Shown here: one piece after another, positions 11,584 through 50,184 of the stretch
How positions within the stretch are numbered: position 1 is the first letter of the stretch
Layout: the number at the start of each line of letters is the position of its first letter
Assembly: GCA_964016885.1 (NCBI GenBank)
Contig: CAXHJY010001326.1
Coordinates: 23,931 to 87,930 of the forward strand
Reading direction: 5' to 3'
From: Eledone cirrhosa
Taxonomy: Eukaryota
Length of the DNA: 64,000 bases
Notes under the pieces: model-generated
Seen by the model: the letters and a program-made list of their open reading frames with translations, nothing else
The model's database searches: none
What the model was told of the DNA's origin: nothing
Translations under genes and position numbers: made by a program

Positions 11584-11938
11584 TCATCATCATCATCATC
11601 ATCATCATTTCCTTTTACGTCTGCTTGTCCCTGCTTGCAAGGGTGGGACGGGAACTGATTCTGGCTTGATTTCTACAGCTGGATGCCCTTCCTAACACCA
11701 ACCTCATTTACAGTCAGTGCTGGGTGCTTTTTTGCCGTGGCACCTCCACGACCACTTTACAGTGGAATGATAGGGACCCCAGTCTCTATCATCTCATTTC
11801 TACAGCTGAGTAAACTGGAGCAATGTGAAATAAAGTGTCTTGCTCAAGGAAACAACAACACATCACCCGGTCTGAGAATCGAAGTCACGACCTTTTGATT
11901 GCAAGGCCAATGCTCTAACCACTAAGCCATGCGCCTCC
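11584..11938 (-). mobile_element. tRNA/CORE-type SINE family B with RTE-like (ATG)n tail
   Basis: Minus-strand head GGCGCATGGCTTAGTGGTTAGAGC, CORE-like CTTGAGCAAGACACTTTATTTCACATTGCTCCAGTTTACTCAGCTGTAGAAATGAG, tail GGTGTTAGGAAGGGCATCCAGCTGTAGAAA...(ATG)n; flanked by (TA)n. Confidence 0.9.
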
Positions 11939-11949
11939 ATATATATATA

Positions 11950-12960
11950 CGAGCTGGGTCAGAAAAGTTCCAGGACTGATGTCACAAAAGATTTATTTCA
12001 AACCCAAACTTCACACTAAGAGTTTTCTCCTTCAAAATAATCCCCCTGGAGTATGTAACTGTAATCTTTGCTCTCTGCAGCGATCAAACTTTTTTCTTCA
12101 TAATTTTATATACATGTCCTCTGTTTCAGGTCGTCAAGCAATGAGTACAGAGCAACGAACAAACTTGAAAACTCTGTCAGAAGCACTGGGATTGCTGCAG
12201 CCAGTGTATGGAGATGAGACGATGCCACGCTCACGTGTTTTTGAGTGGTGCAAGAGGTTTAAAGAAGGACTTGAGGACGTGGAAGATGACCCCAGGAGTG
12301 GAAGGCCCTCAACAACCAGGATTGAGGTCAACGTTGAGCCTGTCAGGCAGATGGTGCGTAGCGAACGTTGGCTGACTGTTCAACTGATGGCAAATGAGCT
12401 GGGCATGTATTGGGACAGCGTCTGGAAGATTCTCACTAAAGATTTGGACATGCGGAAAGTCTGCGCGAAGATGGTGCCAAAACTGCTGAACGATGACCAG
12501 AAGGGTCGACACATGCAAGTGTGCCAGGACATCCTCGAGCATCTTGAAGCCGAACCAGACTTGCTAGAGACAGTCATCATCGGTGATGAGTCATGGATCT
12601 TCGAGTACGACCCGGAGGGGACCCGTTTTGAAGTACAAGTATAAACCAAGGTGATGTGCATTGTGAATACACCACAGGAAGCCCTCCAACATTTTCATAA
12701 AGCAGTTTGGAGCAAGAGATCGGATCAGCGGGTCTTAAAAATCTGGCAGCTGCATCACAACAAGATCCCAGCTCATTCATCAGAGCTAATCCAAGGTTTC
12801 TTGGCAAAACAAGACATTTTACTCATTGGTCAGCCTCTCTACTCTCCAGACAGGATTCCTACTGACATCTGGTCGATTCTCAAAATGAAGATGTCACTGA
12901 AAGGCCCTTGCCTTGAGAACTGAGAAGGTATCATGTGGACTGTGGTGGCAGAGCTGAGAG
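11950..12960 (+). mobile_element. mariner-family DNA transposon, internally deleted
   Basis: TA followed by CGAGCTGGGTCAGAAAAGTTCCAGGACT left TIR-like end; transposase remnants downstream; no right TIR seen. Confidence 0.85.
12141..12923 (+). pseudogene. mariner transposase pseudogene
   Basis: RSRVFEWCKRFKEGLEDVEDDPRSGRPST (HTH linker), KVCAKMVPKLL (WVP-like), IIGDESWIFEYDPE (first catalytic D), WQLHHNKIPAH, PLYSPD; deletion and frameshift after EYDPE. Confidence 0.9.
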
Positions 12961-36709: not shown

Positions 36710-37147
36710 GGTACCTACGTAAAAACACTTATTAGCAAGACATACCCATTCCAAAGACCCTCATGTATAGATAAGAAATGTATAACCTGTAAAATAAGCC
36801 CCCATATTAACTGTAAAACTAGAAATGTAGTGTATAGCATAAGATGTACTGAAGGACAATGTAGAAACAAAAATATAGTGTACATAGGTGAGACAGCTCG
36901 TAGTATAGGGGAACGGATAAATGAACACTGGCGAGACCTTTAAGATAATAAAGAATCATCTGTACTCTACCAACATGCTAAGATAGAACACAAGGGTAAA
37001 TTAGAGAACATAGAAATAAAAATAGAATCCACACACAGAAAAGATGCAATGTTTAGGCAAATTACAGAGGCAGTAAGCATAAAAGAATTACAACCAAAAT
37101 TAAATATAAAATATGAGTGGAACAGCAACATCACAACTTACAATTAA
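36710..37147 (+). pseudogene. GIY-YIG endonuclease domain (PLE), one internal stop
   Basis: Manual translation: ..CITCKISPHINCKTRNVVYSIRCTEGQCRNKNIVYIGETARSIGERINEHWRDL*DNKESSVLYQHAKIEH..MFRQITEAVSIKELQPKLNIKYEWN; VVY..YIG, R and E motifs plus CCHH residues; TAA at 36941. Confidence 0.88.
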
Positions 37148-37575: not shown

Positions 37576-39841
37576 TTCTGTGACGCAAATAACCTAACTA
37601 TCTGTAACACTAACTTCAAAAAATGTGACAATCACCTGATCACCTATAGATCCGGGGAACACACAAGCCAGGTAGATTATATCCTTACCAGAAGACGCGA
37701 CAGAGTGTCTGTTGTAAACACTAAAATCCCTCCCCCATGAAGAATGCACCTCCCAACATAGACTGATAATTAGCGACCTCATAGTCAGGATGAGACGTAC
37801 TCGACAGCAGAAGAGGACTATCCTCAGGAGAAAAATATGGAAGGTAAAGGACCCCACAGCCAGAAATAAATTTCAAAGCATATTAATTGATGCTTTCGAC
37901 AGTAAGGAAGAGCATTTAGAGTCGGACAATATAGATGGACAGTGGGAATTTCTGAAAGCAAACCTGCTGATGGCGACAGACGAAGTCTGTGGCTGGAGCA
38001 GGCCTGTAGGCAGGAGGAGAGTAACATGGTGGTGGAACAGTAAGGTGGAGGAGTCAATTAAGGCCAAAAAGCAGGCTTGGAAAGTATGGCGGGATGGGGG
38101 AAGTAGAGAAGACTATCAAGTGGCCAGGAGGGAAGCTAGGAGACAAGTGTACTTCGCAAGAAGGGAAGCAGAGGAAAGAAAGTTCAAGCATGTTCTACAA
38201 CGCGAGGACCAAAAACGTGAGGTGTTCAGGATTGCTAGGCAATGCGTCAAGGAAAACCGTGATATTGTCGGGGAGAAGTGTGTACTTAATGATGACGGCG
38301 TACTTGCCATCACCGACGCTGATAAGAAGGTAGCTTGGAAGTGTCACTATGAAAGGCTACTAAATGAGGAGAATAAATGGGAGAAAGACAGTCTCCCCCA
38401 CATCGACCCAATAGAGGGACCAGCAGTGTTAGTCGAGGGGAGTATAATAAGTAAGGCAATCAAGGATATGAAGACGGGTAAGGCGGCTGGGCCTTCGGAA
38501 ATAGTTGCTGAGATGCTGAAGGCATCTGGCACGGTGGGACACACCATGGTCACCCTCATAGTTAACCAAGTCGTACAGAATGGGGTTGTTCCGAAGGACT
38601 GGTATAGCAGCATCATCGTTAACTGTTATAAGGGTAAAGGAGTCCCCCGCTCCATTATCTGGTGGGCTCTTAGAAAACTAGGGGTTGACGAATGGCTTGT
38701 GAGAGCTATACAAGCCATGTATAAAGAAACAGTCAGCAAGGTTAGAATTAACAACGAATATAGTGAAGAGTTTAGCGTAAAAGTTGGCGTCCATCAGGGC
38801 TCTATTCTCAGCCCCCTACTATTTATTATTGCCCTTCAGGCTATAACAGAGGAGTTGAAGACCGGCTGCCCATGGGAACTCCTATACGCAGATGACCAGA
38901 CACTCATAGCTGAATCAATGGCCGAGCTAGAGAAGAAATTCCAAACATGGAAGCATGGCCTAGAATCAAAAGGACTTAAAATTAACCTGGTTAAGACTAA
39001 AGTTCTAGTTTGTAGGAAAGAAAATAAGGCGGCGGTCCCTTCTGGGAAATAGTCATGCTCAGTGTGTAGGAAAGGCGTAGGTAGAAACTCCATTTTATGT
39101 CCCAAATGCAAAGTATGGGTGCATAAAAGATGTAGTGGGATCACAGGTAAGCTAACTAAGAACATAGATTTTACATGTGGCCGGTGCTCTGGTGCAATAA
39201 GTAGCAGCAAGTGCCCACAAAATACTAGCTCTTTCAATTGCGCAGAGGGTTCTATAGAAATAGTGGACAGCTTCCGTTACCTGGGCGATAAAATCAGCAG
39301 TGGGGGAGGGTGCTCTGAAAGTACAGTAGCTAGAGTCAGAACTGGTTGGAAAAAGTTCAGAGAGCTTATACCACTATTAGCTGCTAAAGGGTTCTCCCTA
39401 AAAATGAAAGGCAGGTTGTATGATGCCTGCATACGAACAGCAACGTTGCATGGCAGTGAGACCTGGGCACTGTGTGCAGAGGATATATGCAGACTAGAGA
39501 GGAACGAAGCTTGCATGCTCCGCTGGATGTGTAACAGTAATATACGTGAACGGCAAAGCATAAACGAACTAAGGAAAAAATTAGAAATAAGAGGGATCAG
39601 ATGTTGTTTACTCGAGAGAAGGCTACGTTGGTATGGACACGTGATGCGCATGAAAGTCGATAGCTGTATAACAAAGTGCAGGGCAATAAAGATAGACGGT
39701 AGCCACGGAATAGGTAGACCTAGAAAAACCTGGGACGAGCTGATAAACTCCGACCTCACACACTTACACCTCTCCAAGACAATATCACTGGACCGAGACC
39801 TTTGGCGGTACTCAGTAACAGAGAAGACCCGCCTTACCTAA
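37576..39841 (+). pseudogene. RTE polyprotein (APE endonuclease end, reverse transcriptase, PHD finger), disrupted
   Basis: FCDANNLTICNTNFKK..LITYRSG..SQVDYIL (APE); +1 frameshift at ~37724; QHRLIISD; GVHQGSILSPLLF; LLYADD; in-frame TAG at 39050 (the two track ORFs share a frame); FRYLG; in-frame deletion at KGKG|VPRS. Confidence 0.93.
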
Positions 39842-46033: not shown

Positions 46034-46153
46034 TTATATATATAATTGGTACTCATAGGGGAACGGATGAAGAACCCAAAAGCACACACTTCGTCCATTC
46101 CCATGTCGATTCAACTTGGATTGCCTCGGAAACATAACCTTATTATGTAACAA

Positions 46154-46227
46154 GTTGCCTGATGATGTCACGACACTCGCACACAGAACAGTGTGGCCAG
46201 TGTCATCATTGAAATATATATCACAGC
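46154..46227 (+). ncRNA. type I hammerhead-like motif (stem I weakened)
   Basis: gttgc-CTGATGA-t-long stem II-GAAA-tatata-TC-acagc. Confidence 0.5.
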
Positions 46228-46393
46228 ATTATTATTAAAGGACTTGAACATCTGAAACTACTTCGCTTTTACTTATTCTATATATATATAATGCTGTGAT
46301 ATATATTTCAATGACGACACTGGCCACACTATATATATATAGAGAGAATAAGTAAAAGCGAAGTAGTTTCAGATGTTCAAGTCCTTTAATAAT

Positions 46394-46583
46394 AATTGTT
46401 TCTACTTTTGGCACAAGGCCAGCAAATACCCAGTACATTACTGGTACTTTATTTTATCGACCCCGTAAGGATGAAAGGCAAAGTTAACCTCGGCGGGATT
46501 TGAACTCAGACTGTAAAGGGGCGTAACTATGCTAGAAAGCATGGCGTCCAACCCTCTACCGATACTGCCAATTCACCACCCTA
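46394..46583 (-). mobile_element. SINE family A
   Basis: Full consensus; 19-bp TSD CAAGTCCTTTAATAATAAT at 46378-46396 and 46611-46629. Confidence 0.9.
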
Positions 46584-46629
46584 GTGGTTTAATAATAACA
46601 ATTCACCACCCAAGTCCTTTAATAATAAT

Positions 46630-46703
46630 GCTGTGATATATATTTCAATGACGACACTGGCCACACTGTTCTGTGTGCGAGTGTTGTGACATCATCAGAC
46701 AGC
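46630..46703 (-). ncRNA. type I hammerhead ribozyme motif
   Basis: Minus strand: GCTGT-CTGATGA-t-stem II (ACACT..CACAC agaaca GTGTG..AGTGT)-GAAA-TATATA-TC-ACAGC; palindromic stem III; base of stem II non-canonical. Confidence 0.6.
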
Positions 46704-46936
46704 TTGTTACATAATAAGGTTATATATATATATATACCTAGCTGTGCCCATAAATCTGACCACACAGAAAAGCACCTCTTATTTATGTGTGTGTGTCTGT
46801 GTGTGTAAATATATATATATATATTCTGTGTATGAACAAATAAATAATATAATATATCACTTCTCTTCCTGATTGAGCACTGTTTTCCTTTTTCACATCT
46901 ACCAATATTTATATATATATATACATATATATATAT

Positions 46937-47277: not shown

Positions 47278-47558
47278 AAATATATATATATATATAAACG
47301 GAAAAAATGAAACAATATTTCATTTCCCACTCTTAGTACGGCTGTTACTTAAATATAAGTATGTACACGTACATACATATATGTATACCAACGTACAGTA
47401 GTATGTATATATATACATACATGCACACATATATATATGCACGTATGGATTCACCGAACATTTATTATAATGCTCGGTGTGTTTGTAAACAAACATCCCG
47501 TATTAAGCCGTAGTGTCTAGCAACCACCGTTGCTCGTTTGTTCAACACTGACAAAGGA

Positions 47559-47601
47559 ACGCTGTACTAGTTTCAAGCTTGTTAGCTATCGTCAGCAACG
47601 T
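47559..47601 (-). ncRNA. minimal type I hammerhead ribozyme
   Basis: Minus strand: ACGTTG-CTGACGA-t-AGCT aaca AGCT-t-GAAA-CTAG-TA-CAGCGT. Confidence 0.72.
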
Positions 47602-48332
47602 ATACCTTCCTGCCAGATTGTTGAACGTATATACTTACCTTATGCATATTAACGGCTGAGTAGCCCAATTTGCATATCGAGTGGGTTAATCGGCCGGGTG
47701 CACCGAAAACGATAAACGGAAAAAATGAAACGATATTTCATTTCCCACTCTTAGTACGGCTGTTACTTAAATATAAGTATGTACACGTACATACATATAT
47801 GTATACCGACGTACAGTAGTATGTATATATATATATACATACATGCACACATATATATATGCACGTATGGATTCACCGAACATTTATTATAATGCTCGGT
47901 GTGTTTGTAAACAAACATCCCGTATTAAGCCGTAGTGTCTAGCAACCACCGTTGCTCGTTTGTTCAACACTGACAAAGGAAATCTGTACTAGTTTCAAGC
48001 TTGTTAGCTATTGGGATGTTTGTTTACAAACACACCGAGCATTATAATAAATGTTCGGTGAATCCATACGTGCATATATATATGTGTGCATGTATGTATA
48101 TATATATATACATACTACTGTACGTCGGTATACATATATGTATGTACATGTACATACTTATATTTAAGTAACAGCCGTACTAAGAGTGGGAAATGAAATA
48201 TCGTTTCATTTTTTCCGTTTATCATTTTCGGTGCACCCGGCCGATTAACCCACTCGATATGCAAATTGGGCTACTCAGCCGTTAATATGCATCAGGTAAA
48301 TATATACGTTCAACAATCTGGCAGGAAGGTAT

Positions 48333-48375
48333 ACGTTGCTGACGATAGCTAACAAGCTTGAAACTAGTACAGCGT
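48333..48375 (+). ncRNA. minimal type I hammerhead ribozyme
   Basis: ACGTTG-CTGACGA-t-AGCT aaca AGCT-t-GAAA-CTAG-TA-CAGCGT: stem I 6 bp (one G-U), palindromic ACTAGT stem III. Confidence 0.72.
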
Positions 48376-48594
48376 TCCTTTGTCAGTGTTGAACAAACGA
48401 GCAACGGTGGTTGCTAGACACTACGGCTTAATACGGGATGTTTGTTTACAAACACATCGAGCATTATAATAAATGTTCGGTGAATCCATACATGCATATA
48501 TATATGTGTGCATGTATGTATATATATATATACATACTACTGTACGTCGGTATACATATATGTATGTATGTGTACATACTTATATATATATATA

Positions 48595-48623
48595 TATGTA
48601 TGGTTTCCTTGTTGACTTTTCCC

Positions 48624-48667
<44 letters not shown>

Positions 48668-48693
48668 GGGAAAAGTCAACAAGGAAACCATAC
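48595..48693. repeat. perfect fold-back around (TA)n
   Basis: TGTATGGTTTCCTTGTTGACTTTTCCCATG-(TA)n-CATGGGAAAAGTCAACAAGGAAACCATACA. Confidence 0.9.
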
Positions 48694-50184
48694 AGGAGAA
48701 CAATGCAGTGCAAAAAAAAATATATATATATAAGTTTAATTCTTGATATAGTAGGAAAAACGTTGTTTTGCATGCTAGTAAGCCATCAGAAGATGGAATG
48801 GGAAATAAAAGAAGCAACAGAAAGTTAGAGAAGATTGAAAATTGGAAGAAAAGGAAATACAATATTTGGATATTTATATATATATATATATGAAAAATCT
48901 TGGACCTCGATGGTTGAGTTATAGCCGTTTCAATAGCTAGATCTGAACTGAAGTAGTAGTAATAATAATAAATCTATAGATTAGATTATTATTAGAGATT
49001 AAAATTTTAAGCCAAACATTTCTGCTTTCTCCTTAAAGTGGGATATTCTGAAACTGATGTTACTAAGTTAAACTGCCTGAGATCGCTGTCGATCCTCTAC
49101 TTCTCTAATATATGCTTATATATATGTATTTACTCAAGTATCTACCTGTCTATGATAGGGCTAATAATGTTCTTAGAACTCCATGTAGTACAGAAGTAAT
49201 AATTCCAACGAGGATGGAGATGTGGATCTATATTATTGTGACTAATAGTATGGAGTTACATAACTACTATTAGTTAGTCAGTATATCGATTTATCCTGAT
49301 CAATCAACTTTCTGAGATGACCATAAAACAATGAACTAATTAAGCACATAACTTTTGTTTTTGTTGTTCATCATACACACACACACATATATATATATAT
49401 AATAACTGGTTCAGTTGATTCATGGTTTACTGAGAAGGGTATCAAAATCATCACTCAGTGCTATGGCAGAGTAATAAACAAGCAAAATGATGGTTTTACT
49501 TGATTAACAATTCTAATGAGCAGATTGGGCTGCAGTGGTGTCTATAGCATTTACATGGATCCTGAGCCACCCATCTGTGAAACAGTTGTAACTGCATAAT
49601 TAATAAGGATCTTAATGTGAAACCTCATGTTGGTCTTTATATATATATATATATATATATATCATCATCCTCATCATCATTTTACGTCCGCTTTTCCCTG
49701 CTTGCAAGGGTGAGACGGATGTATATATATATAAACATACATATAGATATATGTATACACATTTATATGCATATACACACACATATGTATATATATGCAT
49801 ATATATATATACCCATATACACACATACATACATACTTGTATATACATGTATATACACATGGGGTGGGTGTGCGATAGGTCATAATTGATGGATCAGATA
49901 TCAATCCTTGTCATGACTATAATATTTCGCTCTAAAGTGTTTGTGGTTTAATTTTTCATAACATAATCCTTGAATTATTCATGTCTCATTGTGTGAATTT
50001 TCTAAGAAAAATTTGAAATTGTTTTCTTTTGTTTGTAATGAATTTTTTTAATTTTTTTTTTATTCCTTATTGCAAGAATGTATTTCTTGGGCATTTTTTA
50101 AAACTCAGCGGAATACAGCAGATTTTTTCCAGAGAAGGATAGCGAGTGAGAGAAAGGTAGTGAGAAAGAGATACATAGGAAGAA

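What the first reader, a model, noticed from the sequence alone, without database searches (positions are those of the whole stretch)
47294..48583. Young 418-bp hammerhead monomer in tandem and inverted array: candidate retrozyme / circular RNA element
Seen: about 1.7 copies on the minus strand (47294-48010) joined at an inversion point to about 1.35 copies on the plus strand (48013-48583). The copies are nearly identical, retain many CpGs, have no credible ORF and are bounded by (TA)n. Each complete monomer has one type I HHR with a palindromic ACTAGT stem III. The reverse block reads through the same monomer junction (~48222), so the template was already multimeric or circular. Established: tandem few-hundred-nt repeats with type I HHRs (non-LTR retrozymes) yield circular RNAs in several animals; minimal HHRs with palindromic stem III cleave as dimers; PLE insertions show tandem/inverted pLTRs. 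Inference: a non-autonomous ribozyme retroelement processed to ~418-nt monomers or circles and re-integrated by a PLE RT. I do not know of one described for this lineage.
Basis: partly seen in the sequence, partly recalled or inferred. Interest (0 to 1): 0.85.

Follow-up and report, generated by a model that had tools for sequence, protein, structure and literature searches.

The report
Penelope-mobilised hammerhead ribozyme repeat
A 422-base non-coding repeat with a predicted self-cutting RNA motif occurs in thousands of copies in this animal genome, often as back-to-back arms whose outer ends fall at two fixed sites, which likely marks copying by a Penelope-type jumping-gene enzyme, probably from a circular RNA.

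Summary
The locus has 1.70 units on the minus strand and 1.36 on the plus strand. The unit is 422 nt (418 in one copy), with two intact type I hammerheads on opposite strands and (TA)n at both ends.

It is one insertion of a large family: 1,875 exact ribozyme cores and 7,330 exact 28-mers in the genome. Outer ends fall at two sites 59 nt apart. Of 48 independent two-armed insertions with both ends near these sites, 45 have one end of each kind. This is the 'tail' footprint of Penelope-like elements (PLEs). Sister families and a young autonomous PLE in this genome show it too.

The hammerhead covaries across sister families, no PLE ORF is reproducibly attached, and arms read through the cleavage site. 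So this is a non-LTR retrozyme, likely mobilised in trans by a PLE. A circular template is likely but unproven; an uncleaved multimer also fits. This copy cannot itself release a monomer. The partner PLE was not identified.

The scan reported this family before on other DNA of this genome (e1-8665316).

The parts
47294..48011 (-). Left arm, 1.70 units; outer (3') end at unit position 275 (distal site), inner end at 398
   Evidence: (TA)n flank
48013..48585 (+). Right arm, 1.36 units; inner end at unit position 66, outer (3') end at 216 (proximal site; exact end blurred by TA microhomology)
47294..47352 (-). 59-nt 'tail' (unit 217-275), present at this outer end only; holds a hairpin
48164..48222 (+). 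Internal copy of the tail segment, read through by the right arm
48328..48378 (+). Intact type I hammerhead motif: core at 48339, U.U at base of helix II, palindromic ACUAGU helix III, predicted cleavage after GUA at 48369
   Evidence: activity untested
47556..47606 (-). Intact type I hammerhead motif: core at 47595, predicted cleavage between 47565 and 47564
   Evidence: activity untested
47982..48011 (-). Third hammerhead, cut by the inversion before its core; 3' strand of stem I carries a private change
48011..48013 (.). Inversion point where the 5' ends of the two arms meet
48259..48306 (+). Octamer ATGCAAAT (48259-48266) and TATA-like box (48300-48306): possible U6/snRNA-type internal promoter, inconclusive
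47279..47293 (.). (TA)n target, left
48586..48597 (.). (TA)n target, right

Best explanation
This is one insertion of an abundant non-coding 422-nt hammerhead repeat (a non-LTR retrozyme) whose two opposed arms end at two fixed sites in (TA)n, likely written into the genome in trans by a Penelope-like element (PLE) protein copying a probably circular RNA from both ends of a DNA break. Shown by the DNA: thousands of dispersed copies, (TA)n targets, outer ends at unit positions 216 and 275 with one of each per two-armed insertion, random inner ends, read-through of the cleavage site, a covarying hammerhead, and no attached ORF. Inferred: a source array is transcribed; hammerheads cut the multimer as dimers through the palindromic helix III; a host ligase closes 422-nt circles; a PLE protein (likely a dimer) cuts both strands of a (TA)n tract, primes one end at 275 and the other at 216, copies across unit boundaries, and the two cDNAs are joined at their 5' ends. 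I put PLE-type mobilisation at about 0.9, and the circle as the main template at about 0.6 overall.
For: Copy number: 1,875 exact 34-nt cores and 7,330 exact 28-mers, reversed controls 0. Ends: 45 independent two-armed insertions have one proximal (211-220) and one distal (269-276) end, and none has two proximal ends. Sister families end at homologous sites: B (469 nt, 255 of 476 columns identical) 5 of 5, and C (468 nt) 5 of 5 with both ends at the two sites. A young 4.1-kb element in this genome with a 1,217-aa RT plus GIY-YIG-type ORF (Atlas score 0.97) shows the same pattern: ends at 249 and 292-308 in (TA)n, one of each in 3 of 3 insertions with both ends seen. [quoted passage not shown] Hammerhead: 57 of 60 cells paired and 6 of 15 pairs changed on both sides across four subfamilies; triplets GUA, GUC, GUU. 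A 310-nt family keeps a palindromic helix III with other letters, ACGCGU. Continuous template: 57 crossings of the cleavage site and 3 stops within 10 nt of it, against 2.2 expected (50 arms). Insertion-private variants in both arms: L103 carries two in 9 of 9 units; 14 of 27 such variants are in every covering unit.
Against: No cleavage, RNA or circle was observed. The partner PLE was not found: the 4.1-kb PLE shares no sequence with the unit beyond TA tracts, and a profile of the tail region found no ORF-linked relative in 295 loci. Three insertions have two distal-like ends (L172, L271, L290), each without (TA)n at the odd end. 13 of 27 variants shared by both arms are not in all units. Some long arrays alternate two diverged units (L265, L266; also parts of L032-L033), which points to later DNA-level amplification or a non-monomer template. 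The tail is 59 nt against 30-40 nt in the papers. The U.U pair and 2-bp helix III predict weak cleavage, and 8 of 9 Xenopus retrozyme dimers did not cleave in vitro (10.64898/2026.07.22.740005). For the anole PLE, unprocessed RNA was the main substrate and hammerhead mutants still inserted (PMC11167929). The covariation rests on four related sequences.
Confidence: 0.6

Rival explanations
1. Same PLE-driven insertion, but the template is an uncleaved linear multimeric transcript of a source array; the hammerhead only trims RNA or is incidental, and circles are not intermediates.
For: Read-through of the cleavage site fits equally. Young homogeneous arrays of 9-10 units exist as possible sources (L103, L104). 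13 of 27 both-arm variants are not in all units. Unprocessed RNA was the dominant substrate for the anole PLE in vitro (PMC11167929).
Against: The hammerhead fold and helix III palindrome are kept across families about 54% identical, so cleavage matters somewhere in the cycle. Retrozyme RNA in coral, mussel and axolotl is largely circular (PMC7229834). Every unit in both arms of L103 shares private variants.
Confidence: 0.3
2. The unit is only the pseudo-LTR of an autonomous PLE, seen as 5'-truncated fragments.
For: PLE-type ends and hammerhead. PLE ORF fragments lie near 21 of 73 sampled loci. In L035 and L277 a PLE endonuclease end lies upstream of an arm in the same sense.
Against: Arrays of up to about 21 units follow head to tail with no ORF between them. 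Of 30 copies of the L035 PLE family, 24 have no unit within 1.5 kb, 5 with a downstream unit lie in one 340-kb duplicated region, and 1 is in the opposite sense. 5' flanks of 30 single-strand clusters share no common PLE untranslated region.
Confidence: 0.04
3. A satellite spread by DNA-level processes (unequal crossing-over, rolling-circle DNA, fold-back rearrangement), with no RNA step.
For: Alternating-dimer arrays and duplicated insertions show DNA-level amplification after insertion (L265, L266, L108, L295).
Against: It does not explain fixed, paired, strand-specific 3' ends in (TA)n with random inner ends, shared with an autonomous RT element, nor the covarying ribozyme.
Confidence: 0.04

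Closest known systems
Metazoan non-LTR retrozymes (Cervera and de la Pena 2020, PMC7229834, parts 2 and 4 of 6 and passages read; Li, Clavereau and Pollet 2026, bioRxiv 10.64898/2026.07.22.740005, parts 1-3 of 5 read)
   Same: Non-coding tandem unit of a few hundred nt, low GC, one type I hammerhead per unit, thousands of copies. The U.U pair at the base of helix II is described for axolotl HHR_Amex2, and a palindromic short helix III with dimer cleavage for amphibian motifs. Both papers propose PLEs as partner or origin.
   Different: In the parts read, neither paper describes two-armed insertions, fixed paired ends or a tail; the PLE link rests on co-occurrence and pLTR similarity, and no cephalopod was studied. 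Expression and circles were shown there and are untested here.
Penelope-like elements, insertion structure and mechanism (Frangieh et al. 2024, PMC11167929, main text read; Craig et al. 2021, PMC8557442, passages read)
   Same: Two internal RT start sites bounding a tail found at one end only, inverted 5'-truncated copy, partial tandems, (TA)n or AT-rich targets, hammerhead upstream of the start sites.
   Different: No ORF. The tail is 59 nt (72-74 nt in sister families) rather than 30-40 nt. The whole unit is the repeat. Non-autonomous PLEs with head-to-tail copies are known in Chlamydomonas (MRC1, PMC8557442 passage), where they resemble their partners; no such resemblance was found here.
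Newt satellite 2 and schistosome hammerhead satellites (seen only as cited in PMC2220036 and PMC6765202 passages)
   Same: Hammerhead-bearing tandem repeat; an internal promoter in the unit is reported for them and is possible here (octamer plus TATA upstream of the hammerhead).
   Different: The promoter here is unproven, its spacing differs from this genome's U6 genes, and the repeat is dispersed as discrete insertions.

Membership tests
Non-LTR retrozyme | Tandem units of about 150-450 nt, non-coding, GC below 50% | tested here: met
   422-nt units, arrays up to about 21 units, no credible ORF, region GC 32-37%
Non-LTR retrozyme | One type I hammerhead per unit with intact core and helices | tested here: met
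   Motif, fold and covariation; no Rfam match
Non-LTR retrozyme | At least two consecutive same-sense intact hammerheads ('active' copy in Li et al. 2026) | tested here: met
   Met by the family (L101, L103, L104 and others); not met by this insertion, which has one per strand
Non-LTR retrozyme | Self-cleavage of the RNA | not testable with these tools
   Needs an in vitro assay
Non-LTR retrozyme | Expression as unit-length linear and circular RNA | not testable with these tools
   Needs RNA data for this organism
Penelope-like element (autonomous) | ORF with RT and GIY-YIG endonuclease | tested here: not met
   None in the unit; none reproducibly attached
PLE-mobilised element | Two fixed 3' end sites bounding a tail, tail at one end only | tested here: met
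   45 mixed, 0 proximal/proximal, 3 distal/near-distal
PLE-mobilised element | Inverted 5'-truncated arm, partial tandems, microsatellite or AT-rich target | tested here: met
PLE-mobilised element | Sequence shared with the pLTR of an autonomous partner | tested here: inconclusive
   Two PLE families tested, no similarity; many other PLE families in the genome were not examined in full
snRNA-type internal promoter (newt satellite 2-like) | Promoter elements matching the host's snRNA genes upstream of the hammerhead | tested here: inconclusive
   Octamer and TATA present as in U6 upstreams L220-L223, but 33 nt apart against 37-39; best 22-nt matches not above shuffles; octamer altered in many of the youngest units and in family C

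The most novel reading that the evidence does not exclude
A PLE protein dimer binds one small circular ribozyme RNA, primes both ends of a double-strand break at two fixed sites on it and rolls round the circle from both sides, so each insertion is a direct genomic record of rolling-circle retrotransposition; the unit may also carry its own U6-type promoter, making it a self-transcribing, viroid-like parasite of PLEs.
Probability: 0.35. Interest if true: 0.8.

Novelty: new variant of a known kind. Interest (0 to 1): 0.55.

Why it matters
The papers read propose that animal retrozymes are copied by PLEs but infer it from co-occurrence and similarity. Here a non-coding retrozyme carries the PLE-specific footprint itself, as a nearly strict one-end-of-each rule. 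That rule also speaks to an open step of PLE biology: how the tail and the inverted arm arise. A 422-nt RNA with two mapped start sites, and young intact PLE ORFs in the same genome, make both questions testable in the existing in vitro PLE assay.

Tried and rejected
Rfam: no hammerhead match; the microRNA hits are TA-hairpin noise.

Expression: no RNA holder listed, which is no evidence either way. The four runs laid were contigs of unknown kind and show only presence of the family and its variants; their depth was not used as a copy number.

Partner search: the PLE next to L035 was rejected. The apparent PLE-like flank of L005 was not that family. The 4.1-kb PLE shares no sequence with the unit. 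A tail-region profile over 295 loci gave 876 hits, 3 outside known families, none ORF-linked. PLE endonuclease ends in the loci are followed by a different hammerhead-like motif. Pfam and PDB sequence searches did not name the PLE ORFs.

A-to-I editing scars: not seen in this family. Shared variants A>G 4 against T>C 0 (p=0.125), private 51 against 56. The raw excess of 103 against 73 is matched by other purine biases.

Purifying selection on the core within the family: not seen (0.047 against 0.036 events per site), but the sample was partly chosen by the core.

Run-off at the cleavage site, expected from a cleaved linear monomer template: not seen.

snRNA promoter match: inconclusive. A six-T run at unit 263-268 would be expected to stop RNA polymerase III before a full unit (recalled knowledge).

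Full report
OBSERVATION. The element runs from 47294 to 48585. I number the unit from the base after the predicted cleavage site. The minus arm covers unit 275 back to 1, then 422 to 6, then 422 to 398 (718 nt). The plus arm covers 66-422, then 1-216 (573 nt). Pieces are 97.5-100% identical to the reference unit. The unit is 422 nt; the outer minus unit has lost 4 nt of the TA tract, which gives the 418 spacing. Both outer ends run into (TA)n. CpG observed/expected is 1.40 against 0.37 for the window, and no credible ORF is present. Two hammerhead cores are intact, one per strand; the third is cut by the inversion. No transcript of this locus therefore has two same-sense ribozymes, and it cannot release a monomer.

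THE RIBOZYME. Rfam does not report it. The motif has a 6-bp stem I, CUGACGA, helix II with U.U at its base, GAAA, a palindromic ACUAGU helix III and a GUA triplet. Relatives in the genome test it: family B (469 nt, 255 of 476 columns identical), family C (468 nt, the bulk of the 100 listed rows of 5,363 pattern hits) and an older subfamily at 84%. Across these four, 57 of 60 cells pair, 6 of 15 pairs change on both sides, 0 of 500 shuffles reach the covariation score, and slid controls pair 35-52%. Four related sequences make this a modest test. A 310-nt family has the palindrome ACGCGU in the same place, which fits cleavage as a dimer. Dimer cleavage of short palindromic helix III motifs is reviewed in PMC6765202 (passages). 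U.U at helix II is described for axolotl (PMC7229834). Activity is untested.

THE FAMILY. The genome is 3.0 Gb. From its SINEs and (TA)n density I take it to be an octopus-like cephalopod; this is recalled, not shown by a call. The exact 34-nt core occurs 1,875 times and a 28-mer 7,330 times, with reversed controls 0. Arrays reach about 21 units. A 300-nt search scored 40 of 1,318 candidates at 96-100%.

THE ENDS. Three samples were mapped: 30 loci by similarity, 43 loci from the first 100 core matches, and 42 loci from the first matches of the 28-mer. Outer ends cluster at unit 211-220 (proximal) or 269-276 (distal), nearly always in (TA)n. Two-armed insertions with one end of each kind number 17, 19 and 13. 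After removing 4 duplicates, 45 are independent. None has two proximal ends. Three have two distal-like ends (L172, L271, L290), each lacking (TA)n at the odd end. About 20 further two-armed or complex clusters had an end elsewhere, in several cases where the alignment broke in the TA tract, and were not classed. Inner ends scatter round the unit. Family B ends at 225-231 and 296-299, and family C at 230-235 and 303-305, homologous to these sites; 5 of 5 insertions in each with both ends at the two sites are mixed.

LINK TO PENELOPE-LIKE ELEMENTS. Frangieh et al. (PMC11167929, main text read) show that a PLE protein cuts and extends both strands of AT-rich DNA and starts reverse transcription at two internal sites that bound the genomic tail. 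Craig et al. (PMC8557442, passages) describe inverted 5'-truncated copies, a 30-40-bp tail often at one end only, and (TA)n targets. This genome holds a young 4.1-kb tandem element with a 1,217-aa ORF whose nearest Atlas clusters carry RT, GIY-YIG and HTH_animal families at 0.97 (Pfam and PDB gave nothing). Its ends fall at 249 and 292-308 in (TA)n, one of each in 3 of 3 insertions with both ends seen. It shares no sequence with the 422-nt unit, so it shows that the machinery exists but is not shown to be the partner.

NON-AUTONOMY. PLE fragments lie near 21 of 73 loci, as expected for elements sharing (TA)n targets, but not in a repeated arrangement. The one suggestive case (L035) was tested on 30 copies of that PLE: 24 had no unit within 1.5 kb, 5 with a downstream unit lie in one duplicated 340-kb region, and 1 is in the opposite sense.

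TEMPLATE. In 50 arms the cleavage site was crossed 57 times, with 3 stops within 10 nt against 2.2 expected (P=0.37; arms were chosen by a 28-mer at unit 56-83). A cleaved linear monomer is therefore not the template; a circle or an uncleaved multimer is. For one shared template: both arms of L103 carry two private variants in 9 of 9 units, and 14 of 27 variants shared by both arms are in every covering unit. Against a pure monomer circle: the other 13 are not, and L265 and L266 alternate two diverged units, most simply by later DNA amplification. In L030 the distal arm covers exactly 216-275, as if it stopped where the second primer sat on the same RNA; this is a single case. No A-to-I editing signal was found.

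PROMOTER. Prompted by earlier scan notes, I compared the unit with this genome's snRNA genes. The U6 upstreams L220-L223 have an octamer-like element near -77 and TATA near -31. The unit has ATGCAAAT and a TATA-like box, which would start RNA about 40 nt before the cleavage site. But the spacing is 33 against 37-39 nt, the best 22-nt matches do not exceed shuffles, 48 units at 97% or more have ATGCATAT against 32 with ATGCAAAT, and family C lacks the octamer. This is inconclusive. An snRNA-type promoter in newt satellite 2 is cited in PMC2220036 (passage; the original paper was not read).

COMPARISON AND NOVELTY. By anatomy it is a non-LTR retrozyme (PMC7229834, parts 2 and 4 of 6 and passages). 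Those authors propose RT copying of circles by PLEs. Li et al. 2026 (bioRxiv 10.64898/2026.07.22.740005, parts 1-3 of 5) link retrozymes to pLTRs by distribution and phylogeny in vertebrates. In what I read, neither describes paired fixed ends. Searches returned no paper describing an octopus retrozyme; giant squid has 235 Rfam hammerhead hits (PMC6962438, passage). The library is partial, Repbase and Dfam were not searchable, and I did not see the supplements of these papers, which may list such families. My reading was recorded before I looked up earlier notes; note e1-8665316 reports the same 422-nt family and reading at another place in this genome. That is not independent evidence.

VERDICT. 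A real, young, abundant retrozyme with a clear PLE insertion footprint: a new variant of a known kind, interest 0.55. PLE-type mobilisation is about 0.9 likely. The circle step is the main open question.

Noticed in passing
L100:2320-6433, L091, L094-L099 (G000 C1, C2, C7): Very young autonomous PLE, 4.1-kb unit, 1,217-aa ORF with an Asn-rich stretch, many copies 99-100% identical, missed by Pfam; ends at 249 and 292-308 in (TA)n. Its pLTR has a hammerhead-like core with helix II but no clear helix I or III.
   Followed up: partly
L128, L203, L204, L070:3200-3451, L032:165-3265: Sister hammerhead repeats in the same genome: 469 nt (B), 468 nt (C), an 84% older subfamily, a more diverged relative, and a 310-nt family with an ACGCGU helix III lying about 600 nt from a 422-nt array.
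   Followed up: partly
L265:1015-5763, L266:1137-3273: Arrays in which two diverged units alternate strictly (420/422 spacing): an amplified dimer.
   Followed up: partly
window 48597-48694: Perfect 98-nt palindrome with a TA centre directly after the right end; no other copy in the 295 loci held.
   Followed up: partly
window 46134-46723: Nested inverted repeats (113-nt and 63-nt arms) interrupted by a SINE-like repeat that is common in the loci.
   Followed up: no
window 36713-37102; 37718-39841; 11919-12644: Fragment of a PLE endonuclease region (62% to the 4.1-kb PLE); a LINE-type RT (RVT_1) in two frames; a mariner-type transposase fragment (HTH_48, below cut-off).
   Followed up: no
L220-L226 upstream of U6: U6 promoters here have an octamer-like element only about 77 nt upstream; in 6 of 15 U6 loci a SINE-like sequence replaces the upstream region up to the TATA box.
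   Followed up: no
L035:2954-4663: A second abundant PLE family (2,568 first-look candidates) with a C-terminal GIY-YIG-like region and no hammerhead core within 1.5 kb downstream in most copies.
   Followed up: partly
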